Positions 1,706 to 43,600 of a stretch of 64,000 nt of DNA are shown piece after piece. Numbering within the stretch: position 1 is the first letter of the stretch; the number at the start of each line of letters is the position of its first letter. Source of the DNA: a virus (taxonomy: Duplodnaviria > Caudoviricetes); IMG/VR virus record IMGVR_UViG_3300035497_000162, positions 55,731-119,730 of that record. The stretch is one strand, 5' to 3'. The position numbers and the translations under genes are program-made. A model generated the notes under the pieces. The model had not been told where the DNA came from. It was given only the letters and a program-made list of their open reading frames with translations, and ran no database searches.

Positions 1706-1741
1706 ATATGAAAATTACAATATAAATTTATAAAATAGTAG

Positions 1742-1847
1742 CGTTCAAAAAAATACCTGACTCGTTCAAAAAAATACCTGACTCGTTCAAAAAAATACCT
1801 GACTCGTTCAAAAAAATACCTGACTCGTTCAAAAAAATACCTGACTC
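1742..1847. repeat. Five perfect tandem 21-bp repeats (CGTTCAAAAAAATACCTGACT), probable iterons of a replication origin
   Basis: Copies at 1742, 1763, 1784, 1805, 1826; followed by AT-only tract ~1908-1950 and GC hairpins at 1963-1978 and 2028-2046. Confidence 0.85.
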
Positions 1848-4496: not shown

Positions 4497-4622
4497 AATT
4501 ATAATTTAGATATATGAAATTTTAATCAGAATGAAGATATAGACATTTTAATATTAAAGTAATGAAATTATATTACTTAGTATATAAAGCGTCTTAAAAT
4601 TCATTCTAATAAGGAGTAATTT

Positions 4623-14909: not shown

Positions 14910-16082
14910 GTGGATATAATGAATTTAAATAGTACTATTCTAGAATTAGAAGAATTTATAGAAGATAGCACAGGTGAAATAGATTTAAATATTAAATATA
15001 AATATTTAATTTTAAAAAAATCAGATTTAGTTAGAGTGATGAATATTTGTAATAAAATGATTCTATCTAAATCTAACGAGATAGAATATAGTTCGATCTC
15101 TTTGGTTCCAGTATTGCATGATAAAAGTGTTTTATTGTACACTACTAATGAATTATCTCAATTTAGATATAGGACCGAGTTGATAGGTGATACTAACGAA
15201 ATGATTAATGAGCCACTATCAGTATCTTTTAGCGTACTACAAAAAATAGTAAAACTTATGGCGAATAAGGTAATGTTTTATATTAAAGACAATAATATCT
15301 ATGTTAGATTATTAGATGGAGATTTATTATTGGATTATAGAAAACCTAGACTAGACGTCTTGAATTTTCCAGGAAACCCTACTGATAAAATAGCTGAATT
15401 GTCTTTATCTAACGTGGGAGAATTAATTAATAAAGTATATACATTAATAGAAAATGAACCTGTGCTAGATAAAAGAAAATTAAATTTTTTGGGAGATAAA
15501 TGTTATTTTAATTCTACTTATTATTACATTGAAAGTGATATAACTACTCCTAGATTATCTCTTTCAGTCAGAGATTTAGATATAATAAAGAAACTATATA
15601 AATATTATAAAGATAATAAAATTCAGTTATTTAATTTTGACTCTAGTGTTTCTAGATTATTTATAAAATTAGATAATATAGAATATATATCAGTGTTATC
15701 GAGTGTATCTAATATTTTTTCACTAACTCAGGAATTACAAGACAGAATTAATGAAACTAAGTTTTCTTTGGATTATAATAAGTTATATAGAATAATTAAT
15801 TTAGCTAATACTTTACCAGGTAATAGTGGAGACCTTAATTTATCATTAGATGATAAATTAACTATAGAAATAAAGTCTAATAATGGCTCATCTAGTTTTA
15901 ATTTAGATGTTAAATATATTAATAACAAAAATTTAACTTATTTTTTATCTATTAAATCTGAGGTATTAAGAAAAGCCTTGATTCCATTTGAAGGAAGTAA
16001 TGAAATAGAATTATCAGTTTCAGAATCAGGGATGATAATTAGTAATAATAAGATAAAATCTATACTAACTTGTTTATTATAG
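14910..16082 (+). CDS. Putative sliding clamp (DnaN-like)
   Basis: 390 aa, TTNEL and beta-clamp-like layout, near primase and clamp loader. Confidence 0.5.
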   Translation: MDIMNLNSTILELEEFIEDSTGEIDLNIKYKYLILKKSDLVRVMNICNKMILSKSNEIEYSSISLVPVLHDKSVLLYTTNELSQFRYRTELIGDTNEMINEPLSVSFSVLQKIVKLMANKVMFYIKDNNIYVRLLDGDLLLDYRKPRLDVLNFPGNPTDKIAELSLSNVGELINKVYTLIENEPVLDKRKLNFLGDKCYFNSTYYYIESDITTPRLSLSVRDLDIIKKLYKYYKDNKIQLFNFDSSVSRLFIKLDNIEYISVLSSVSNIFSLTQELQDRINETKFSLDYNKLYRIINLANTLPGNSGDLNLSLDDKLTIEIKSNNGSSSFNLDVKYINNKNLTYFLSIKSEVLRKALIPFEGSNEIELSVSESGMIISNNKIKSILTCLL

Positions 16083-16124
16083 CATAATATTATTTATAGA
16101 AGTATTTAATATACCTCTATAAAT

Positions 16125-16286
16125 GAGGTAGTTTATCCCTTTTAAGTACATCGCTACTCGTATAGAGCTTAGGTGTAAAGTTATGTTATTTGAGGTTTTA
16201 TATGTATACTAAATAACATAGTAATAAAACGCACTAGATAAAAGAAAATTAAATTTTTTGGTTTTATATGTATACTAAATAACATA
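16125..16286 (+). CRISPR. Cassette A: 70-nt scaffold, repeat 16195-16230, 30-nt spacer, truncated repeat
   Basis: Repeat GTTTTATATGTATACTAAATAACATAGTAATAAAAC; spacer 16231-16260. Confidence 0.85.
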
Positions 16287-16299
16287 AAATGAATAGTGG

Positions 16300-16995
16300 T
16301 TGGTGATTTATATGAATTATAGTAACTTAAAGAGGATTTTTGAATTAGGTAGACTAATTAATAAAGATGATAATTTTCCATATAAACATTTAGCATATAA
16401 ACATAAATTTGATAATTATAGGTTTATAACCTCTGGCGAATTGTTTATTAGAGGTAAAAATCTTGAAATACCTCAGTATGTTGCTCAATTCATGAATTTT
16501 CATAATGAAGCTGTAATGATTGCAAATATCATAGAAGATAGGGTAATATCAATAACTTTTAGAAGTACAGACCATATTAAGGAATTTATAAAATTAGGAA
16601 CTACTAAATCTACTTTTTATGGATTAGGAAGATTATCAGAGGATTTTAGATTTGGTGATCCTATATTGTTAGTTGAAGGTCATTTGGATAGAGATATGAT
16701 GGCTCTTATTTATCCTAATACTTTAGGTATAATGACTAGCCATTTATCTAAATCACAGATAGAGATACTAAGTAATTTAACTAATAAATTTATATTAATG
16801 TTAGATAATGACGAAGCTGGTATTAATGGACAGAGAAAGACTAAATTTGATTTAAAAGGAAATAAAATTTATGAGTTAAAACATAATTCTAAATTAAAAG
16901 ATGCAGGTGACCTAGTTGATTTAGATATTACTAATCACCGATTATATAATGAAATCATAGAAGATTATAAAACTCAAATTGAATATTTTATTTAA
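16300..16995 (+). CDS. TOPRIM primase (DnaG-like, no zinc finger seen)
   Basis: LVEGHLD, LDNDEAG, KDAGD motifs. Confidence 0.8.
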   Translation: MVIYMNYSNLKRIFELGRLINKDDNFPYKHLAYKHKFDNYRFITSGELFIRGKNLEIPQYVAQFMNFHNEAVMIANIIEDRVISITFRSTDHIKEFIKLGTTKSTFYGLGRLSEDFRFGDPILLVEGHLDRDMMALIYPNTLGIMTSHLSKSQIEILSNLTNKFILMLDNDEAGINGQRKTKFDLKGNKIYELKHNSKLKDAGDLVDLDITNHRLYNEIIEDYKTQIEYFI

Positions 16996-19040: not shown

Positions 19041-19436
19041 ATGAAAGAAGATTTTAATAAGGTAGATTTTGATGTAGGTTCACTTATTGTATTTAAAGAT
19101 TTAAAAGATAATGAAGTAGATTTATTAATTAAATTATTGTCTGATGAAAATTCATATTTATTTCAGGTTTTATTTAATGTTATTGGTATAAATGATACTC
19201 TGAAATTAATAGATATATTTTCAGATAACAAAATAATATTCCCACCTAGAAAAAGAATATATAAATTAATAGAAAAAATAAAAATATATGAATATATTAA
19301 ATCTAAAAATGAATCTGAAGAAGCATATAAATTATTATCTAAACAGTATAATAAAAGAATATCACAGCTAAAATCTATTGTAGAAAGAATAGATTATCTA
19401 CTTGAAAATAAAAATTTAAAGGAGGAAACAAAATGA
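19041..19436 (+). CDS. Mor-like transcription regulator
   Basis: KLIDIF...IIFPP ... LSKQYN...IV pattern; RBS before ATG19041. Confidence 0.5.
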   Translation: MKEDFNKVDFDVGSLIVFKDLKDNEVDLLIKLLSDENSYLFQVLFNVIGINDTLKLIDIFSDNKIIFPPRKRIYKLIEKIKIYEYIKSKNESEEAYKLLSKQYNKRISQLKSIVERIDYLLENKNLKEETK

Positions 19437-19693
19437 AAATTACAAATGTAAAAATTAGAAAGGTTGATAACAATACTAAAATGAAAGGGATAGCTTCTAT
19501 AGCTATAGATAATAATTTCGTAATTCATGGAATTAAAATTATAGAGAGCCAAAATGGATTTTTTATAGCTATGCCTAGTAAAAGAAACGAAGATGGAACT
19601 TTTAGTGACATAGCTCATCCAATTAACTCAAATACTAGAAATTACATTCAAGATATGATTCTAGAAGCATATAATAATAATATAGAGGGTTAA
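19433..19693 (+). CDS. spoVG: SpoVG
   Basis: MKITNVKIR..FVIHGIKII..FIAMPS..DIAHPIN. Confidence 0.92.
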   Translation: MKITNVKIRKVDNNTKMKGIASIAIDNNFVIHGIKIIESQNGFFIAMPSKRNEDGTFSDIAHPINSNTRNYIQDMILEAYNNNIEG

Positions 19694-19858
19694 AATAATA
19701 TAAAACTTTAAAATTCTGTTTACTTTTTAGGAATTTTGTTGTATAAATATAATATAGTTAATATATTAATTATATAATTCAGACAACTTTCTGAATATGC
19801 GTGAGTAGAAAGGTGGGATTCCCTCCGCTGAAAACATAAATTAAAATCCCACTTAAAT

Positions 19859-19931
19859 GCTACTTTAGCTCAGATGGTAGAGCAATTGATTAGTAATCAA
19901 TAGGTCATCTGTTCGATCCAGATAAGTAGCT
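19859..19931 (+). tRNA. tRNA-Thr(AGT)
   Basis: Acceptor GCTACTT/AAGTAGC, anticodon arm ATTGA-TTAGTAA-TCAAT, T loop GTTCGATC. Confidence 0.9.
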
Positions 19932-19937
19932 TCACTT

Positions 19938-20072
19938 GAGGTTGTTTATACCTTTAAAGTACATCGCTACTCGTATAGAGTCTAGATGTAAAGTTATGTT
20001 ATTTGAGGTTTTATATGTATACTAAATAACATAATAGTAAAACATCGTCGATTATATTCTAATTACATATAT
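19938..20072 (+). CRISPR. Cassette B: scaffold, single repeat 20008-20043, 29-nt flank ending at tRNA-Gln
   Basis: Same scaffold and repeat variant (..CATAATAGTAAAAC), between two tRNAs. Confidence 0.8.
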
Positions 20073-20146
20073 TTCAGAATAGTGAAATGGTATCACATTG
20101 GATTTTGATTCCAATATTCTTAGTTCGAGTCTAGGTTCTGAAACCA
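20073..20146 (+). tRNA. tRNA-Gln(TTG)
   Basis: TTCAGAA/TTCTGAA-A-CCA, anticodon arm TTGGA-TTTTGAT-TCCAA. Confidence 0.9.
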
Positions 20147-20445
20147 CTAGCTATTATACTATATATAGTATAATAGACTAAGTACTTTTAATTACTTTTT
20201 AAATCTTAAACAAAGTATTAGCCCGTCTATGCTAGATAGGCTGGTTTGATACAACCACTTTGTACTAAAGTAAAAAGGGTATCTAAGGTTTTAATCTATT
20301 CCTTATAGTACAAAAAAGATTATGCTTTGAAAAGTTTCAAGTTTCTATATTTCAGTACAGCGTAAAATCTTTTCTATAAAAGAGTACTGAAGATCTTATA
20401 TATTAAATAATATAATAGTAAAATATATTTGACAGTACTTTATTT

Positions 20446-20522
20446 GGCTCGTTAGTTTAGTCGGTTAGAATACATGCCTGTCACGCATGAGGTCAACAGT
20501 TCAAATCTGTTACGAGTCGCCA
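20446..20522 (+). tRNA. tRNA-Asp(GTC)
   Basis: GGCTCGT/ACGAGTC-G-CCA, CATGC-CTGTCAC-GCATG. Confidence 0.93.
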
Positions 20523-20842
20523 CGAAGTATTATAATATTACATAGAATAAATATTCTTTTATTCCCTCAAATTGATGTTTATTTATTATTTTTTAATTTG
20601 CTTTATAATAAATAAACATTATAGATATATTATAATATTTCGACAAGTTTTTGGTTTAGCGCTCTTAATTGAGTTCAATTCTTGGTAAAGTTATATAAAT
20701 CCAAGAGTCAAGTGTATACGGCAACTTTCATGGAGCTGAAAATTAAGCAGAGACGAAGAAATACACAGAAATACTAACTCTATATAAATATAGAGGAGAA
20801 TCTTAATTGACAGTCTGGAATAGACAGACGTTAATATTATTT

Positions 20843-21013
20843 GAGGTAGTTTATACCTTTTAAGTACATCGCTACTTCTTAATGAAGTTTAGGTGTAAAA
20901 TTATGTTATTTGAGGTTTTATACGTATACTAAATAACATAGTAATAAAACGTAATAGTAACTGTTACTGGAAGTATCGTTTTATATGTATATAAAATAAC
21001 ATAATAGTAAAAC
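20843..21013 (+). CRISPR. Cassette C: scaffold, repeats 20915-20950 and 20978-21013, 27-nt spacer
   Basis: Scaffold variant with compensatory hairpin ACTTC-TTAAT-GAAGT. Confidence 0.85.
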
Positions 21014-21051
21014 GGACCAGTAGTTGTAGGTTCAAATCCTATCTAAGTCCA
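21014..21051 (+). pseudogene. 3' half of a tRNA (identity uncertain)
   Basis: GGA-CCAGT-AGTT-GTAGG-TTCAAAT-CCTAT-CTAAGTCCA; no 5' half upstream. Confidence 0.7.
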
Positions 21052-21058
21052 TTTTTAT

Positions 21059-21133
21059 GGAGTATTAGTCAAGTTGGTAAGACAATAGATTGCAAATCTA
21101 TGATCGTTGGTTCAAATCCAATATACTCCTCCA
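21059..21133 (+). tRNA. tRNA-Cys(GCA)
   Basis: GGAGTAT/ATACTCC-T-CCA, ATAGA-TTGCAAA-TCTAT, U73. Confidence 0.93.
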
Positions 21134-21136
21134 TTT

Positions 21137-21437
21137 GAGGTAGTTTATCCCTTTTAAGTACATCGCTACTCGTATAGAGCTTAGGTGTAAAGTTATGTTA
21201 TTTGAGGTTTTATATGTATACTAAATAACATAGTAATAAAACTCAGGATATGGTTCTATTATTAAATTAAGAGTTTTATATGTATACTAAATAACATAGT
21301 AATAAAACAATCTGTACATATATTTTGTATTAATTGTTTTATATGTATACTAAATAACATAGTAATAAAACGAAAAAACATAAGATTAATAATTTAGAGT
21401 TGTTTTATACATATACTAAATAGCATAATAGAAAAAC
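21137..21437 (+). CRISPR. Cassette D: scaffold, 4 repeats (21207, 21273, 21336, 21402), spacers of 30/27/30 nt
   Basis: 36-nt repeats, last one degenerate. Confidence 0.92.
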
Positions 21438-21477
21438 ATCTTTAGTAAATAGTAAAACATACTAATTAACTTTTTTA

Positions 21478-21510
21478 AAAGTAGATAATATTATCTGCTT
21501 TATTTTTTTG
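21478..21510 (+). terminator. Terminator after cassette D
   Basis: AAAGTAGATAATATTATCTGCTTT plus T tract. Confidence 0.65.
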
Positions 21511-21569: not shown

Positions 21570-24500
21570 ATGCAGGAAAATTTAAAGCAAGATTCATTGA
21601 ATGATTTAGTAAACACTATTATAGATATGAAAGATTCTGAAAAGAAAGCAGCTAGAATAAGAGATATAGTACCTATAGAGGAATGGATAAATTCAGAATA
21701 CTACGTAGGTCCAGATGCTTTATCTATATACCCTTATTGGAAACAACATATAATAAATATATTTAATAGTAAAGTTAAGATTAATGAAGTTATATTAACT
21801 GGAGGGTTAGGAACAGGTAAGACAACTATTGCAAATATTATATTATTAAGAAGGATATATGAGTTATCTTGTTATAGTAATATACCAGCTCTATTTAATT
21901 TGATGGCTAGTTCAAAGATAATGTTAGCTTATTTTAATCTTAATTTAGGACAAGCACTATTAACAGGGTTTGGTCAACTTAAAGAGATGATAGATAATTG
22001 CCCTTATTTTTTAGAACACTTTCCTAGAAATAATAAAAAGGATAGTGAAATAGTTTGGCCACAAGCTAATATAATGGTCCGCTTTGCCTCTGGAACTCAA
22101 CATACCATCGGATCTAATTTGATAGGTTAAATCTAATATAAGCCTAGGTATCGCGTGAGCGGTATATTAATTTGATACATTGAATTGCTGGAAACTCGTA
22201 AAGCTAACTAAACTACAACATAATATCTTAAATGATATAAGTGTGAATGTTACGAAAGTAGAAAAAATTAGTTAGATGGTATATGGTTAAATCCTAAGTA
22301 CTATTAAAATTGATAATCAGCAGCTAAGCTCGAAAGAGAAAGTTCAACGACTATCTTCGTTAAGAAGAGTAAAACTCAAGTGAGAAGAAGTGGTGTACCC
22401 TTAGTAATAGGTGATGATATAGTCTGTCCTTTATAGAAATATAAAGAAGTTCATAAGAGAACTGATAAAGATTAACGAACTTTATTGAACATAAATTTCA
22501 TTAGATGAATATTTAATACTTTTAAAGTATATATCCTTATTAGGGGGGTATTTTAGATGATAGGTTATATTTATGAAACAACTAATTTAATAAATGGAAA
22601 GAAATATATAGGAAAACATAAATCTTGTAATTTTGATAAAAATTATTATGGTTCTGGAATAGGATTAAAAAGAGCTCTAAATAAATATGGAAAAGAGAAT
22701 TTTAAAATTGTAATTTTAGAAGAAATAGAAACTAATCAAAAAGACTTAGATCTAAGAGAAGTTTATTGGATAGAATATTTTGATGCTGTAAAAAGTAAGA
22801 ATTATTATAATAATTCTTACGGTGGAGAAAATGAAGGTTGGTCTGGAGTAAATAAAATGTTTAGAGAAAATTCAGATAAATGGAAAGCTAAAGTTGAAAA
22901 GTCAGCAAAAACTCAAACAGGTCAAAAGAGAAGTTTTGAAACTAAACAAAAAATATCTAAATCTTTAAAAGGTAAATCTAAATCAGAAGAACATATAAAA
23001 CATTTACGAGATGCTAAATTAAAATTTTGGGAAAACGCTTCTGAAGATTTAAAGAAAAGAATGGGATATAACTTTGGAACTTTAGGTAAACAATCTCCTA
23101 TAAAAGGACTTAATGCCGAAAATTCTGAGTATGTTAGAAAAGCTAGAGATAATATGATGAAAACAAAAAATTCAGAAGAGTGGAAACAGACTAAAGGTTT
23201 AGAATCAAGGAAAAAATTAAGTAAAACTAGAAAAGAAAGAGGTTTAGCTAAAGGAAAAAATAATCCTATGTATGGAACTAAAACTGTATATGTTTCAAAT
23301 ATAAAACAAAATAAAGTAAAACGTATTAATTTAGGTGATTTAGATAATTATTTATTAGATGGTTGGATAAAGGGTAATATTCATAAAATGAAATAGAGAG
23401 CATATTAGACGAAGCAAATTTTTTTAGTAAAACAGAAAAAATAACTGAGACAGCTATGCAAGTACAAGATAAAGCTAAAGATATTTATACAGCAGCAAGA
23501 AACAGACGGAAAATCACGTTTCTTGGTTAATGGTGAGAATAATTCTATATCTATACTAGTATCATCTACTACTTTTGATAGCTCTTTTACTAATCAGAGG
23601 TTAAAAGAAACTGAGAACGATCCACACACTTATGTAGTAAATGCTAGGAGTTGGGATGTTAAACCACAAAATTATAGTAAAGAAAGGTTTTATGTATTTT
23701 GTGGGTCTGGTGAGATAGACCCTTGTATATTAGATACATATATAGATGTTAATAATATATTAGATTCTTATGGCTTATCTAGACTAGAAGATATGTCAGT
23801 AAATGAAGCTATAGGATATATCCCAATAGAGCTCAGAACTCAAATTGTAGACATACCGATAGACTTTTTATCTGATTTTAGACAGAATTTATTACAGTCT
23901 ATTCAAGATATTGCAGGTATGACTGTAGCCGGTGAGGGAAAATTATTTAATAATAAAGAATTATTTAATCAAGCTATTTATGAACCTGAAGAAAAAGCAT
24001 TTCTAAAAGATACGTTTATTATATCTACAAAGTTAGATACTAAACCTCAAGACTATATAAACCCTAATTGGAAACCTGAACAACCAGAAAAATTAAGGTT
24101 TATGCACCTAGATCAAGGTATAGCATCAGATCATTATGGTTTATCTTCTTGTTTTATAGATAATATAGATATAAATAAAGATGAAACTATAACTCTACAC
24201 GTAAAGTTTGATTTTATAATAGATATAGTTCCACCAAGACCACCAGCAAAAGTAGATATATCTAAGGTAAGAAGTTTAATTCCTTGGTTATCACAAAATA
24301 AAGGAATTAATTGGGGTAAAATTACATATGATACTTTTCAATCACAGGAATCAATACAGGAATTAGATAAAGCTGGTTTTCCAGTAGGTTATCAGTCTGT
24401 TGATAGAACAGATGAAGCTTACCTTTTATTAGTAGATTATATTTATAATAAACAAATTAGATTTCCATATAGCAAAGAATTTGAATTTAATCTATTTAAT

Positions 24501-24667: not shown

Positions 24668-25441
24668 ATGTTTGGGTATATTTATGAAACAACTAACTTA
24701 ATAAATGGAAAGAAATATATTGGTAAAAGACAATCAAATATATTTTTAGGTAATAAGTATTTAGGTAGCGGTAAAATATTAAAACAAGCTATTATAAAAG
24801 AAGGTGAAGAAAATTTTTCAGTTAAACTATTAGAGAAATGTGATAGTAAAGAAGATTTAGAATTTAAAGAAAAATATTATATTAGCAAATTTAATGCAGT
24901 AAAAGATACTAATTATTATAATATAGCCACTGGTGGAGAAGGTGGAGATACTTTTTCTGGATTATCTGATAAATGTAAAGAGCAAGTAAGACTTAGACAT
25001 TCAATTGCTAGTTCTAAATTAATTATGTCTGAAGAGACTAAAAATAAAATATCTAGAGCTAATAAAAATAGAGTACATTCTGCGAAATCTAGATTTAATA
25101 TGTCTATAGGTCAAAAGAAAAGATATAGTAATGGAAATACTGTTTGGAATAAGGGTTTAAAAAATTGTTTTTCTAGTGAAACGTTGAAATTAATGTCTGA
25201 GCATAATGTTGGTATGAAAGGTAAAAAACACAAAGAATCTACTAAAGAATTAATGTCAAATAATCAAATTGGAAATAAAAATTCATTTTATAATAAACAT
25301 CATACAAAAGAAGCCAAAGATAGAATTGGTTATTATTCTAGAAATTCAGTTTGGATTACTAAAGATAATGAACATAAAAGAGTTTTATCAGAAGTTCTTA
25401 ATACTTATTTAAGTTTAGGATGGCATAAAGGGAGACATTAA
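24668..25441 (+). CDS. Free-standing GIY-YIG homing endonuclease (Seg-like)
   Basis: GYIY..YIGK, YLGSG, NUMOD3-like KKHKESTK. Confidence 0.9.
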   Translation: MFGYIYETTNLINGKKYIGKRQSNIFLGNKYLGSGKILKQAIIKEGEENFSVKLLEKCDSKEDLEFKEKYYISKFNAVKDTNYYNIATGGEGGDTFSGLSDKCKEQVRLRHSIASSKLIMSEETKNKISRANKNRVHSAKSRFNMSIGQKKRYSNGNTVWNKGLKNCFSSETLKLMSEHNVGMKGKKHKESTKELMSNNQIGNKNSFYNKHHTKEAKDRIGYYSRNSVWITKDNEHKRVLSEVLNTYLSLGWHKGRH

Positions 25442-28750: not shown

Positions 28751-29458
28751 ATGTTTGGATATATTTATGAAACAACTAATTTAATAAATGGAAAGAAGTA
28801 TATAGGACAAAAGACTAGTAAAATATTTTTAAAAGAAAAATATTTAGGTTCTGGAACTTATTTAAAAAGAGCTTTAAATAAGTATGGAAAAGAAAATTTT
28901 AAAGTAAGACTTATAGAAGAATGTGATTCTAAAGAAGAATTAGATAGTCAAGAAATATATTGGATAGATTATTACAATGCAGTGAAGTCTAAAGATTATT
29001 ATAATCAATCTAGTGGTGGAGAACATTGGGATTTACCTAGTGAATACATTGCTGAAACTAATAGAAAATATCAATCAAAAAAGATGAAAGGTAGAATTTA
29101 TATCAGTAGAAATTATGATGAAGAAAAACTTATTTGGTCATATGAATTGGATGAGTATACTAATTGTGGTTGGACGAGGGGTAGAAGTAAAAAATCTAAA
29201 CTTGTTATTAGTCAGAAAACTAAGGAAGCTTTAAAAGATGTGGTTTTTACAGAAGAACAGAGATATAAGATGGGTTCTCCTAATCGAGGCAAACATCTTT
29301 CAGAAGAAACTAAAACTAAAATGTCTAATTATTGGAAAAATAGACCAAAGCCTTGGAGTAGACAACTTAAATCAGAAGAGACAAAAGCTAAAATGTCTAT
29401 TTCAGCTAGAAATAGAAAAAGGGATGCTAAAGGTCGTTTTATAAAGGAGGTATTATAA
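28751..29458 (+). CDS. GIY-YIG endonuclease between split-intein halves
   Basis: GYIY..YIGQ, YLGSG, NUMOD3-like GKHLSEETK. Confidence 0.9.
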   Translation: MFGYIYETTNLINGKKYIGQKTSKIFLKEKYLGSGTYLKRALNKYGKENFKVRLIEECDSKEELDSQEIYWIDYYNAVKSKDYYNQSSGGEHWDLPSEYIAETNRKYQSKKMKGRIYISRNYDEEKLIWSYELDEYTNCGWTRGRSKKSKLVISQKTKEALKDVVFTEEQRYKMGSPNRGKHLSEETKTKMSNYWKNRPKPWSRQLKSEETKAKMSISARNRKRDAKGRFIKEVL

Positions 29459-40656: not shown

Positions 40657-43600
40657 TTGGCAACTAATGGAAATGATGGAAATAATCAAGGTGGTACTAT
40701 AAGATATACTAATGAAGCTGTATCTAGTAGAGGTATCTCTGGAGCTATGCAAGAGAGATCTGTAAAAAGTTCTTTTGCTCGAGATGTTTGGAGAAATGAA
40801 GGTTATTTATCTAGTGCTATAAAAGATATGCAAGAATTAGTAAAATTATATACTAATTTACAAGGTATCACTGATAAAATGTCTAAATCTGAACAAAAAG
40901 CTGCTAAGGATAAATTATCAGCAGCTAAAGACTATTTAGACTATACTAATCAAATTAAAGAATCTGGAGAAGTTTCTGATAAAGAAGCTATAGATATGAT
41001 AAAAGCTGTCAATAAGCTTAAACTTGAAGGTCAGAAAGAGTATGTAAAAATATTAGAAACTGCTCAATTAACTCAAGAAGAAATTGATAAGAACCATCTA
41101 CAGTCTTTAGAAAGTGCTAGAAATGAATATAGTAGTATTAAAACACAAGTAGAAAATACTAGTATACAATTAACTAAGGTATCTAAAACATTAGATGCTA
41201 CAGGTAAAAGTTTTGCTACTAATTTAAGTGATACTTTAAGTAAAGCTGGAGATAGATTATCTAGTTTATCTAATATGTTCAATTTGAGCAAGATAGCAGA
41301 TAATACAGCTAATCAGCAGTTAAAAGAGATAAATACAATAAAGACTTCAGTAAATCAACAATTTGGCTTTACTTCTAGTGCTCAATTTGATGAGTTCGCT
41401 AATAGTTTAAATGATACTCTTAAAGAAATGAATAGTAATATGGATAACTTATTTAGTATGTCTGATATGACTCAATATCTCCAAAACTTATCTGAATATG
41501 GAGTTACTAATACACAATTAGCTCAAGACTCTATGAAGGATTCATTAATAGCTACTAAATATTTAGGAGCTTCAACTGAAACTATGACTCAGATGTTTAA
41601 GTTTATGAAACTAACTAATAATTCCGATACTATTTCTAAATACAATAGAACAATGGTTGGATTAATGAAATCTCAATTAGGATTAAGTGCCGACCAGTTA
41701 AGTGCTTTATCCGAAATAGCCTATGGCTCTACAGAAGATAAATTAGCTTTAGGAATGACAGCAGATGCTGTAGAAGCACAAAATGAAGCTTTATCTATAG
41801 GCGGGTCTGCATTGGAGGCTATGTATGGAGAAGATGTATCGAAATCTATTTTAAGTGCATTTAATGATTTTATGCTTAACCCAGATAGTGAATCTTGGAG
41901 AGCTACTTTAGGAACTGATTATAATAATATTTATAATACTGCATTTAGTGGAACTACTGTAGAAAGTCAACAGAAAGCATTTAATGACTTTTTAAATGCT
42001 ATAGCTAATTCTAATATGGTTGGAGTTACTAGTGGTTCTAGTGTAGGAACAGCCATAGCTAATAAAACCTTGAATGGAATTACTGATTTAAATTCAAGTG
42101 TAATATCTGCTTTAAAGGGTTTTGATGATTCGACTTATCAAAATGAAATTACTAATGCTTTAGATAGTATAAATAGTACAACTGATGAGATGGTAGAACA
42201 ATTTGTAGAACAGTCAACAGAAGCTACTTGGTTAGAAAAAATTCAAAATTGGTTAGAAACTACTATTGGTACAAATGCTTGGAATATGTTACCTTTTTTA
42301 GCTAATGCTGCTTTTACAGCTTATTTAGCATCAGATTTATTAAAAGGTGGTAAATTTATAGTAGACTGCTTTAAAGGTAGTGGTAAAAATTCTATAAGTG
42401 GAATAGTTGAAAATACTGGAAGTACTGTTAGTGAAACTTCATCTTTAGCTTCTGCATTTAAAACAGGAACAGCTGTAGTAGCATTAACCGCAGCTACTAT
42501 AAGTGCTATGGCAACCATTAGTGATAAGCTTACTTCCCAGGCTCAAAGTAAATATGCTAATGAAGCAACTGAAGCACTTGCTGGAACTGAATTTGAAGGT
42601 AATAATGCTTTAATAGGGTCATATGCAACTACTCAAGCAACAGAACATAAAAGTTTTTGGCAAAAGAACTTTGGTAGCTTAGCATCCGGAGCATCATATT
42701 TTGCTAGTGGTATTGTTGGAAGTAAAGATGGGTCTTATAAAAATGAGAAATTAATTAAATGGATGTATGATACTGGATATATTGATAGTAAAGCTAAAGC
42801 TTTAACTATAGCTTATATTATGGATTCTATTGGTGATTTAAGTGCTTTTAATAGTGCAATGGGTACTAGCTACACACATGATGATTTGAAACAGCTATTA
42901 GACACTGAAATTATTACAAAAGATACAATAGATCAAGAAGCACAATATATATTTAATAAAGGTGGTTATAGTTTTTATAATGATGATGGAAGTAGATTTA
43001 AGTCATTTAATTTAGATTTAAATGGATATAAAAAGAACGGTTTAGTTTATGTTCCAAAAGATAATTATAAAGCTTTATTACATCAAGGAGAAATGATTCT
43101 TACGGCTGATGAAGCTAATCAATATAGAAATATGATGAATATAGACAGATATGGTAATACATTAAATGCTGGTGGTTCTATTGGTATAGGAGGTTCTGCT
43201 AATGTAGGTGGAGATAGTGATAGTAGCTGGACTAGTATTATACACTCACCTTGGACTAGAATATCTTCTATGTGGGGTAGTAGACCTAATCCATTTGGTG
43301 GAAATGGTAATGAAAATCATGGTGGTATGGATATAGCAGCACCTCAAGGAACTCCTATTGGAGCTCCAATAAGTGGTAAAGTTTATACTACTACTTCTGG
43401 ATATGGTGGAGGTTTTGGTAATTCAGTATATTTACAAGGAAGTAATGGAATGAACTATATATTAGCTCATATGGTTAGTAAACCTAAAGTATCTTCAGGA
43501 GATTCTGTTACTGCTGGACAAGTAATTGGATATGTAGGTTCTACTGGTAGAAGTACTGGACCGCATTTACATTTCCAAGTAGATGCTAATAATGCATGGA

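What the first reader, a model, noticed from the sequence alone, without database searches (positions are those of the whole stretch)
15459..16260. Spacer A targets a variant allele of the adjacent phage gene, with self-escape mismatches beside a CCT motif
Seen: spacer 16231-16260 (GCACTAGATAAAAGAAAATTAAATTTTTTG) matches 15462-15491 in the upstream clamp-like gene at 28/30. The two mismatches (GCA vs GTG, Ala vs Val) are at positions 2-3, next to CCT at 15459-15461 (AGG on the other strand). Inference: CCN (or NGG) is the PAM, the mismatches lie in the seed, and the guide cuts sibling phages ~700 bp from the cassette. That would favour inheritance of the cassette in co-infection, like a free-standing homing endonuclease but RNA-guided.
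Basis: partly seen in the sequence, partly recalled or inferred. Interest (0 to 1): 0.88.

Follow-up and report, generated by a model that had tools for sequence, protein, structure and literature searches.

The report
Phage guide RNA aimed at own clamp-gene variant
A 120-kb T4-like phage carries its own small RNA-guided nuclease (TnpB family), and one of its ten guide cassettes holds a guide matching the neighbouring sliding-clamp gene at 28 of 30 bases, most likely to attack close relatives while sparing itself; no such relative is in the public data.

Summary
Spacer 16231-16260 matches 15462-15491 at 28/30. The mismatches are at guide positions 2-3 (GCA Ala in the guide, GTG Val in the gene), and CCT lies just 5' of the site. 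No shuffle of the window reproduces the match.

The cassette is not Cas-less. The phage (119.7 kb, 26% GC) encodes one intact 414-aa TnpB-family nuclease, 13.6 kb upstream of the window. It also holds ten cassettes of a 72-nt structured scaffold with an anti-repeat, a 36-nt repeat and 27-30-nt guides. Two TnpB homologues (52-54% identity) on other contigs are followed by the same scaffold and repeat. Guides sit 3' of the repeat, so positions 2-3 are next to the PAM/TAM side and should block self-cleavage.

The target gene folds as a DnaN-type beta clamp. CCN as the PAM is unproven: a second near-self guide, D3 (28/30), is flanked by TTAAT.

No GCA allele or cassette-less sibling exists in any collection searched. 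Only clonal copies and relatives at or below 46% identity are present, so homing-like drive is plausible but untested.

Mutated own loci and array-proximal targets were already described for archaeal virus mini-arrays (PMC6858448). Other first-stage notes of this scan recorded the same genome's system; no other DNA in the scan shows it.

The parts
14919..16082 (+). Target gene: phage DnaN-type beta sliding clamp (387 aa, P0045)
   Evidence: ORF. Model pLDDT 87.7. Foldseek best hits are bacterial DnaN clamps, E 3e-20, TM 0.76-0.80. Syntenic with HU, Toprim and clamp-loader genes.
15459..15461 (+). CCT (Pro181 codon) directly 5' of the protospacer-like site; candidate PAM/TAM, unproven
   Evidence: CC occurs at 1.3% of positions. 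Not shared by the D3 near-self site (TTAAT).
15462..15491 (+). Protospacer-like site in the phage's own clamp gene, 28/30 to guide A; mismatches at positions 2-3 (GTG Val182 versus GCA Ala)
   Evidence: Identical in all clonal copies L012-L016. It falls in a variable stretch of the clamp alignment.
16118..16125 (+). TATAAATG, resembling a T4 late promoter, overlapping the start of the scaffold (inference only)
   Evidence: Read from the sequence. Other cassettes carry TATAAT here or abut a tRNA 3' end.
16123..16194 (+). Cassette A scaffold: 72-nt structured RNA ending in the anti-repeat GTTATGTTATTT and the junction ATTTGAG
   Evidence: Ten copies in the genome and two beside TnpB homologues. 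Four stems, 6 pairs with compensatory changes; G-U pairs that would be A-C on the other strand.
16195..16230 (+). 36-nt repeat 1 of cassette A; its 3' half is the handle preceding the guide
   Evidence: Collapsed cassettes keep only the 3' 18 nt before their guides.
16231..16260 (+). Guide (spacer) A, 30 nt
16261..16286 (+). Truncated terminal repeat (first 26 nt only); no second guide follows, and the Toprim gene starts at 16313
19936..20072 (+). Cassette B: scaffold starts 4 nt after tRNA-Thr; one repeat; the 29-nt guide ends at the first base of tRNA-Gln (20073)
20841..21013 (+). Cassette C: scaffold, repeat, 27-nt guide, repeat
21135..21437 (+). Cassette D, directly after tRNA-Cys: four repeats. 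Guides D1 (21243-21272), D2, and D3 (21372-21401; 28/30 to genome 33969-33998)
   Evidence: The D3 mismatches are synonymous. D1 matches thyA of relatives at 24/30.
34259..34561 (+). Cassette E: scaffold plus four repeats, followed by a terminator-like hairpin and T run

Best explanation
Guide A is the single guide of one of ten scaffold-repeat-guide cassettes that serve a nuclease encoded by the phage itself. This is a 414-aa TnpB-family protein (genome 40882-42126, 13.6 kb upstream of the window). It has an intact RuvC triad, and the genome has no TnpA or Cas1. The cassette is transcribed on the + strand. The scaffold's anti-repeat pairs with the repeat, and the 30-nt guide follows the repeat's 3' handle, as in an omegaRNA or a Cas12f/TranC tracr-crRNA pair. 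The guide specifies a clamp-gene allele that differs from the resident one only at guide positions 2-3. The resident gene is therefore not cut, because the mismatches lie next to the TAM side (and the TAM itself may be absent). A co-infecting close relative carrying the matching allele would be cut in an essential replication gene. This is interviral conflict. Because the immune allele and the cassette are 0.7 kb apart in a recombination-proficient T4-like phage, repair of the cut genome from the resident genome would co-convert both. That would be a homing-like bonus.

Shown: the match, the cassette anatomy, the RNA strand, the effector gene and its co-occurrence with this scaffold and repeat on three contigs, and the clamp fold.

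Inferred: that the TnpB uses these guides, that mismatches at 2-3 block cleavage, that a sensitive sibling exists, and that linkage gives drive.
For: - Match 28/30 versus 0 expected.
- Ten cassettes share a 72-nt scaffold and a 36-nt repeat, all on the + strand.
- TnpB family: Pfam HTH_OrfB_IS605, OrfB_IS605 and Cas12f1-like_TNB; NCBIfam guided_TnpB 207 bits against a cut-off of 100; ISDra2 TnpB 8H1J/8BF8 E 1e-32, with IAIDLG, IIIED and HDRD aligned to its RuvC motifs.
- There is a single TnpB copy, and no Y1 transposase or Cas1.
- Scaffolds flank the TnpB gene. The homologues P0052 (54%) and P0053 (52%) are each followed within about 15 nt by a homologous scaffold and the same repeat 3' half. 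L026 carries an array of at least 8 repeats with 30-nt spacers.
- Consensus structure: 25 pairs, 6 with compensatory changes, and G-U pairs on the + strand.
- Collapsed cassettes keep only the repeat's 3' 18 nt before the guide.
- A second guide, D3, is 28/30 to another gene of the phage, with synonymous differences, as expected between sibling alleles.
- Guide D1 is 24/30 (p about 0.003 per spacer) to thyA of relatives, a gene this phage lacks.
- Relatives carry a 120-139-aa ORF where cassette A sits.
- Precedent: in virus mini-arrays the carrier's orthologous loci hold point mutations and the targets lie close to the arrays (PMC6858448). A TranC system has been reported in a phage (bioRxiv 10.64898/2026.03.27.714800).
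Against: - No genome with the perfect (GCA) protospacer was found in the IMG/VR, JGI metagenome or GenBank phage scans or in the 15-billion-protein collection. All accessible copies are clonal.
- The TAM is unknown. The two robust near-self sites have unlike 5' flanks (AACCT and TTAAT).
- D3's target is 43 kb from its cassette, so proximity is not a general rule.
- D3's own-genome site has a perfect 12-nt TAM-proximal match. This needs another explanation for self-tolerance, such as no TAM there or the mismatch at position 13.
- No expression or processing data exist.
- No adaptation genes are present, so how the guides are acquired is unexplained.
Confidence: 0.55

Rival explanations
1. Relic of autoimmunity. 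The guide was copied from the phage's own clamp gene (by local capture or by a host adaptation machine). It was self-targeting, and survivors fixed an escape change at guide positions 2-3 of the gene. The guide now has no target and no function.
For: The 28/30 match is to the adjacent gene only 0.7 kb away (p = 0.013 by chance), which suits local capture. Both differences sit in one codon at the most escape-effective positions. No sibling allele exists in any database.
Against: D3's differences from its own-genome site are two synonymous changes at positions 13 and 29. This looks like neutral divergence between siblings, not escape. Most guides have no match in the phage's own genome at all. 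The cassette is perfectly conserved, with an intact scaffold and repeat, in every copy. The two readings are not exclusive, because escape in the carrier also creates a weapon against non-escaped kin.
Confidence: 0.2
2. The arrays serve a host type II-A Cas9, read from the - strand. The crRNA would be the reverse complement of the spacer plus the repeat start. AGG (the reverse complement of CCT) would be an NGG PAM, and the two mismatches would fall in the Cas9 seed.
For: 36-nt repeats with GTTTT...AAAAC ends and 30-nt spacers. The repeat gives a weak, sub-threshold match to Rfam CRISPR-DR22 (20.7 bits against a gathering score of 50). From memory, the repeat's reverse complement resembles streptococcal and Listeria II-A repeats, and ATTTGAG resembles a II-A leader-end motif. 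GG/CC next to the site is rare in this genome (1.3-2.6%).
Against: - All genes and the two terminator-like hairpins after arrays D and E are on the + strand.
- The scaffold and anti-repeat stems hold many G-U pairs that become A-C on the - strand.
- Degenerate repeats sit at the + strand 3' end.
- The same scaffold and repeat follow TnpB homologues on two other contigs, on the same strand.
- The single-repeat cassette B and the TnpB-upstream cassette have no upstream spacer for a type II crRNA.
- No bacterial genome among 185,579 species holds the repeat.
- D3's site would have ATT, not NGG.
Confidence: 0.07
3. Self-regulation. The imperfect guide directs the nuclease to bind its own clamp gene without cutting it, tuning clamp expression or marking a replication or recombination site.
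For: Partially matching guides that repress rather than cut are known in other CRISPR systems (general knowledge). The target is a replication gene next to the cassette.
Against: The mismatches lie at the TAM-proximal end, where R-loop formation starts, so binding should be lost rather than merely cleavage (published TnpB/Cas12 behaviour; not tested here). The RuvC triad is intact. The guide has mRNA sense and would pair with the template strand only. The second near-self guide targets an unrelated 96-aa ORF.
Confidence: 0.05

Closest known systems
Virus-borne mini-CRISPR arrays in interviral conflict (Saccharolobus portogloboviruses SPV1/SPV2; Medvedeva et al. 2019, PMC6858448)
   Same: Short arrays in a virus genome. 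The spacers match close relatives. The carrier's orthologous locus holds point mutations that prevent self-targeting. The targets lie close to the array.
   Different: Those arrays use the host's repeats and host Cas proteins. Here the repeat was found in no bacterial genome and the phage encodes its own TnpB-family effector with a tracr-like scaffold fused to each array. No sibling virus is available here, whereas SPV1 and SPV2 target each other.
TranC / type V-U / Cas12f: TnpB-sized effectors with a downstream CRISPR array and tracrRNA (PMC10691335; LaTranC PDB 9JFO; bioRxiv 10.64898/2026.03.27.714800)
   Same: A TnpB-fold RuvC nuclease of about 400 aa with no adaptation genes. Array of 36-nt repeats downstream on the same strand. 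A scaffold RNA with an anti-repeat. One such system (CauTranC9) has been reported in a phage.
   Different: Here the guides are spread over ten loci across 120 kb, each with its own copy of the scaffold joined to the first repeat. Three are collapsed into single-guide-like forms. Some are bounded by tRNA genes. At least two guides nearly match the carrier's own genes. Only the C-terminal part of LaTranC matched (query residues 259-410; E 5e-16); ISDra2 TnpB matched over the full length (E 1e-32).
IS200/IS605 TnpB-omegaRNA (ISDra2; PDB 8H1J, 8EXA) and its homing-type role (Meers et al. 2023, cited in PMC11656645)
   Same: This is the best full-length natural sequence match (the top PDB hit is an AI-designed RNA-guided nuclease, 9YYG, E 2.7e-36). 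The guide sits at the 3' end of a structured RNA encoded just downstream of tnpB. The nuclease cuts the allele that lacks the element, favouring retention or spread.
   Different: There is no TnpA and no transposon ends. The guides are CRISPR-like spacers between repeats, not the flank of the element. The protein has a 20-aa insertion relative to ISDra2.
Free-standing homing endonucleases of T4-like phages (Seg/Mob; PMC2988022, PMC10055350)
   Same: The nuclease specificity is aimed at a conserved gene next to the element. The carrier is protected by a polymorphism at the site. The expected outcome is co-conversion or marker exclusion in co-infection. This phage also carries three GIY-YIG/NUMOD3 genes and inteins.
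   Different: Recognition would be by RNA. The nuclease gene lies 30 kb from the cassette and is shared by ten cassettes. Cutting and drive are untested.

Membership tests
Type V-like TnpB/TranC CRISPR system | TnpB/Cas12-fold effector with an intact RuvC D-E-D triad | tested here: met
   Pfam and NCBIfam hits. Alignment to ISDra2 TnpB places D198, E306 and D400/D402 on its RuvC motifs.
Type V-like TnpB/TranC CRISPR system | CRISPR repeats and spacers next to the effector, downstream and on the same strand | tested here: met
   A cassette starts 10 nt after the TnpB stop codon. L026 has at least 8 repeats after its homologue, and L027 has the scaffold plus repeat.
Type V-like TnpB/TranC CRISPR system | Scaffold (tracr-like) RNA whose anti-repeat pairs with the repeat | tested here: met
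   RNAalifold on 12 copies gives an 11-bp anti-repeat:repeat stem and three further stems, with 6 covarying pairs. Expression was not tested.
Type V-like TnpB/TranC CRISPR system | PAM/TAM-dependent, guide-dependent DNA cleavage | not testable with these tools
   Only two robust protospacer-like sites exist, with unlike flanks (AACCT, TTAAT).
Host-dependent virus mini-CRISPR array | Repeats identical to a host CRISPR-Cas locus | tested here: inconclusive
   No match to the repeat in one genome each of 185,579 species, by two patterns. The host is unknown, so absence is not proof.
Host-dependent virus mini-CRISPR array | Spacers match related viruses, and the carrier's own locus is mutated | tested here: inconclusive
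   The phage's own loci are mutated at 2 of 30 positions for guides A and D3. No related virus with a perfect match was found.
IS200/IS605 OMEGA transposon | TnpA (Y1 transposase) and/or transposon ends, with the guide equal to the flanking DNA | tested here: not met
   No PF01797 hit in the genome. The guides lie between repeats.
Free-standing homing endonuclease | The element-bearing genome is resistant at the cut site and the site lies near the element | tested here: met
   Two mismatches at guide positions 2-3; the site is 0.63 kb from the cassette start.
Free-standing homing endonuclease | Cleavage of the element-less allele, and biased inheritance in co-infection | not testable with these tools
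   No element-less sibling with the sensitive allele is known. Distant relatives have another ORF at the site.

The most novel reading that the evidence does not exclude
The cassettes are guide-only, non-autonomous homing elements. One phage TnpB, acting in trans, cuts sibling genomes at sites that are linked to (A, perhaps D1) or distant from (D3) each cassette. Recombinational repair then copies the cassette together with its immune allele into the sibling. That would be a distributed, RNA-programmed gene drive or marker-exclusion system in a lytic T4-like phage. It may also preserve unsplit (fused scaffold-guide) and split (array) guide forms side by side.
Probability: 0.25. Interest if true: 0.85.

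Novelty: new variant of a known kind. Interest (0 to 1): 0.64.

Why it matters
If guide A works as proposed, the phage uses a programmable nuclease of its own against its nearest kin. It would be protected by a two-base change in its own clamp gene. The immune allele and the guide are linked tightly enough to travel together, which would be an RNA-guided counterpart of the Seg/Mob homing endonucleases of T4.

This would extend interviral CRISPR conflict, so far shown with host-dependent arrays of archaeal viruses, to a bacteriophage with a self-contained TnpB-level system. It would also offer a natural setting to study:
- how TnpB guide RNAs became split into tracr and crRNA;
- how guides are matured, since tRNA genes bound some cassettes;
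- how guides are acquired without Cas1.

The system is compact (414 aa, with a scaffold plus handle of about 90-110 nt) and could interest tool builders. The specific pattern, a mutated own locus with the target near the array, has been described before. The novelty therefore lies in the effector and the dispersed architecture rather than in the self-near-match itself.

Tried and rejected
- **Host or other carriers of the repeat.** A degenerate full-length repeat and a two-repeat gapped pattern gave 0 hits in genome contigs, viral contigs and metagenome contigs. The repeat's 3' half gave two single, apparently chance hits in IMG/VR.
- **Sibling allele.** The 27-nt protospacer core gave 0 hits in IMG/VR and JGI metagenomes; near-identical records are masked by the tools. 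The clamp region has no match in GenBank phages. A clamp peptide scan of IMG/VR found no relative.
- **Population variation.** Contigs from more than 10 samples are identical.
- **TAM from more protospacers.** The phage's own guides and L026's guides were scanned against relatives' loci and 80 TnpB-bearing viral loci. Only D1-thyA (24/30) stood out, and g1 and g3 hits are at chance level. Arrays D and E against GenBank phages gave noise only. A degenerate D1 codon pattern gave 0 hits in IMG/VR. The conserved 16-nt guide shared with L026 gave 28 unrelated chance hits.
- **Closer TnpB-array systems in IMG/VR.** The 80 best loci are at most 37% identical and lack the scaffold and repeat.
- **Single-sequence folds.** Folds of the repeat and scaffold were not better than shuffles. 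Only the comparative analysis was informative.
- **Rejected readings.** Cas13 or type III RNA targeting is rejected because the guides have mRNA sense. Type II read on the + strand is rejected because the 3' flanks GGA and AAG give no common PAM.

Full report
**1. Observation**

The window is bases 55731-119730 of a 119,730-bp IMG/VR virus record (94% complete, 26% GC, all genes on the + strand). It has a T4-type major capsid protein and portal. Its nearest cultured relatives are Listeria, Bacillus and Streptococcus myophages at 34-38% capsid identity.

The 30-nt spacer at 16231-16260 matches 15462-15491 on the same strand at 28/30. The mismatches are at spacer positions 2-3, and no shuffle gave such a match. 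The site is in frame: GTG is Val182 of the 387-aa product of 14919-16082, and the spacer reads GCA (Ala). The preceding codon is CCT.

The gene has no Pfam hit. Its AlphaFold model (pLDDT 87.7) superposes on bacterial DnaN beta clamps (E 3e-20, TM 0.76-0.80). The targeted residues fall in a stretch that varies among homologues.

**2. What the cassette is**

The 36-nt repeat (GTTTTATATGTATACTAAATAACATAGTAATAAAAC) occurs about 20 times, always on the + strand. It is grouped in ten cassettes: five in the window (A at 16123, B at 19936, C at 20841, D at 21135, E at 34259) and five upstream in the genome. Each cassette begins with a conserved 72-nt element that ends in an anti-repeat (GTTATGTTATTT) complementary to the middle of the repeat.

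An earlier first-stage note (e1-5867037) pointed to a TnpB gene, and I tested that lead.
- Genome 40882-42126 encodes a 414-aa protein with HTH_OrfB_IS605, OrfB_IS605 and Cas12f1-like TNB domains.
- It scores 207 bits on NCBIfam guided_TnpB, against a cut-off of 100.
- It matches ISDra2 TnpB over its full length (E 1e-32), with the three RuvC motifs aligned, and LaTranC in the C-terminal part.
- It is the only such gene in the genome. No Y1 transposase or Cas1 is present.

Scaffolds flank the gene. In these and one other cassette the anti-repeat/repeat hairpin is shortened or deleted, leaving the scaffold, the repeat's last 18 nt and the guide. This is a natural single-guide layout.

Two homologues at 54% and 52% identity, on unrelated contigs, are each followed within about 15 nt by a homologous scaffold and the same repeat 3' half. 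L026 has an array of at least 8 repeats with 30-nt spacers, in a syntenic phage context.

A consensus fold of 12 scaffold copies gives four stems, with six pairs kept through double changes. It also has many G-U pairs that would be A-C on the opposite strand. Together with the gene orientation and the hairpin-plus-T-run after arrays D and E, this fixes the + strand as the RNA. It also places the guide 3' of the repeat, as in omegaRNAs and Cas12f/TranC guides.

**3. Consequence for the finding**

With this polarity the 5' flank (…AACCT) is the TAM/PAM side. Guide positions 2-3 are the first bases of R-loop formation, where published work on TnpB and Cas12f shows no tolerance for mismatches. The resident clamp allele should therefore be immune.

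The identity of the PAM does not follow from the data.
- A second guide, D3 (21372-21401), matches genome 33969-33998 at 28/30. Its two differences are synonymous, at positions 13 and 29. The site begins at the G of an ATG start codon and is flanked by TTAAT.
- Guide D1 matches thyA of distant relatives at 24/30 (1 of 300 shuffles did as well; 23 guides were tested) and is flanked by CTAAT. This phage lacks thyA.
- CC occurs at 1.3% of positions and TAAT at 1.9%, so neither flank is what chance would favour.

Either CCN is the TAM and the D3 site is safe because it lacks one, or a TAAT-like TAM applies. A TAAT-like motif would be reminiscent of TTGAT, the ISDra2 TAM as I recall it. In that case the clamp site has lost both the TAM and the seed match. 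I cannot decide between these.

**4. Is there a sibling to cut?**

None is accessible.
- The 90% cluster of the clamp protein holds only the resident sequence and three fragments of it.
- Contigs from more than ten samples are base-for-base identical across 1-7 kb. They carry both the GTG allele and cassette A.
- The next homologues are at most 46% identical. They sit in 120-129-kb relatives that have a 120-139-aa ORF where cassette A lies here, and no scaffold or repeat in the 20 kb examined.
- Exact scans for the protospacer core found nothing further.

The sibling-targeting and homing ideas are thus neither confirmed nor refuted. They gain some support from three points: the 0.7-kb linkage (p about 0.013 by chance), the non-random position of the mismatches (p 0.007-0.034), and the allele-like nature of D3's differences. 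They lose some from D3's target lying 43 kb from its cassette.

**5. Comparison with known systems**

The pattern was reported for the mini-arrays of the archaeal viruses SPV1 and SPV2. There the carrier's orthologous locus has point mutations and the target lies close to the array (PMC6858448). Virus mini-arrays aimed at relatives are an accepted class (PMC11656645).

TnpB-sized effectors with downstream arrays and no other cas genes are also known. These include 40 V-U branches (PMC10691335) and the TranC clades, one of them from a phage.

Three things are unusual here. One effector serves ten dispersed cassettes, each with its own fused scaffold. Fused and array forms of the guide coexist. 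Some cassettes are bounded by tRNA genes. These belong to the wider system, which other first-stage notes also flagged. The present finding is one informative guide within it.

**6. Verdict**

Best reading (about 0.55): a guide for the phage's own TnpB-family nuclease, aimed at a kin allele of the clamp gene, with the carrier protected by TAM-proximal mismatches. Homing-like co-inheritance is a plausible consequence (about 0.25). The main rival is a functionless relic of self-acquisition followed by escape (about 0.2). This is a new variant of a known kind.

Noticed in passing
window 19859-20146 and 21059-21242: Cassette B's scaffold starts 4 nt after tRNA-Thr, and its 29-nt guide ends exactly at base 1 of tRNA-Gln. 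Cassette D's scaffold starts right after the CCA of tRNA-Cys. tRNA processing (RNase P/Z) may cut out the guide RNAs, a natural analogue of engineered tRNA-gRNA arrays.
   Followed up: partly
window 21014-21051: After the last repeat of cassette C, the 'guide' position holds a tRNA 3'-half-like minihelix (T arm GTAGG-TTCAAAT-CCTAT plus an acceptor strand). It could be a processing signal, a remnant of a disrupted tRNA gene, or a guide against a tRNA gene.
   Followed up: no
genome 40819-40834 (outside the window; L011:2819-2834) and L026:4429-4446, 4532-4549: The guide directly upstream of the TnpB gene begins with AACGGCTTAAAAGTTT. The same 16 nt begin two short guides in the array of the 54%-identical homologue's locus. 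No target was found; 28 IMG/VR hits look like chance.
   Followed up: partly
genome 28850-29051, 40744-40848, 42135-42310 (L010, L011): Three cassettes have the anti-repeat/repeat hairpin shortened to a 3-nt loop or deleted. This gives compact scaffold-handle-guide units that look like natural single-guide RNAs. Two of them flank the TnpB gene.
   Followed up: partly
window 16188-16230 and all first repeats: The repeat gives a sub-threshold match to Rfam CRISPR-DR22 (20.7 bits against 50), and the leader ends in ATTTGAG. From memory these resemble type II-A repeats (in reverse complement) and a II-A leader-anchoring motif. Whether a host II-A adaptation module could load these arrays is untested.
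   Followed up: partly
window 19433-21500 compared with L018/L021-L023: Relatives carry a glycosyltransferase and thyA upstream of SpoVG. This phage lacks thyA altogether and has the tRNA and cassette B-D cluster just downstream of SpoVG. Guide D1 matches the relatives' thyA at 24/30.
   Followed up: partly
window 34367-34459: Guides E1 (27 nt) and E2 (30 nt) share the same last 12 nt (ACACTATTTAAC). This suggests duplication or two alleles of one target.
   Followed up: no
window 22557-23396, 24668-25441, 28751-29458; genome 17935-22321: Three paralogous GIY-YIG/NUMOD3 (Seg-like) endonuclease genes lie in the window. A family A DNA polymerase gene upstream is interrupted by an intein with a LAGLIDADG domain. 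The genome is rich in homing elements.
   Followed up: no
window 1721-1847 and 62894-63907: Six tandem copies of a 21-nt unit (CGTTCAAAAAAATACCTGACT) lie in an intergenic stretch. About 11-14 copies of a 72-nt unit lie inside the last ORF of the window.
   Followed up: no
L021:551-1815, L023:234-1498; genome-wide notes e1-5867057, e1-5867029 and e1-5867049: Several conserved genes in the relatives (for example SHMT in two of three loci) appear as two or three adjacent ORFs. Other first-stage notes propose +1 recoding at CGG in this genome. I did not examine this.
   Followed up: no
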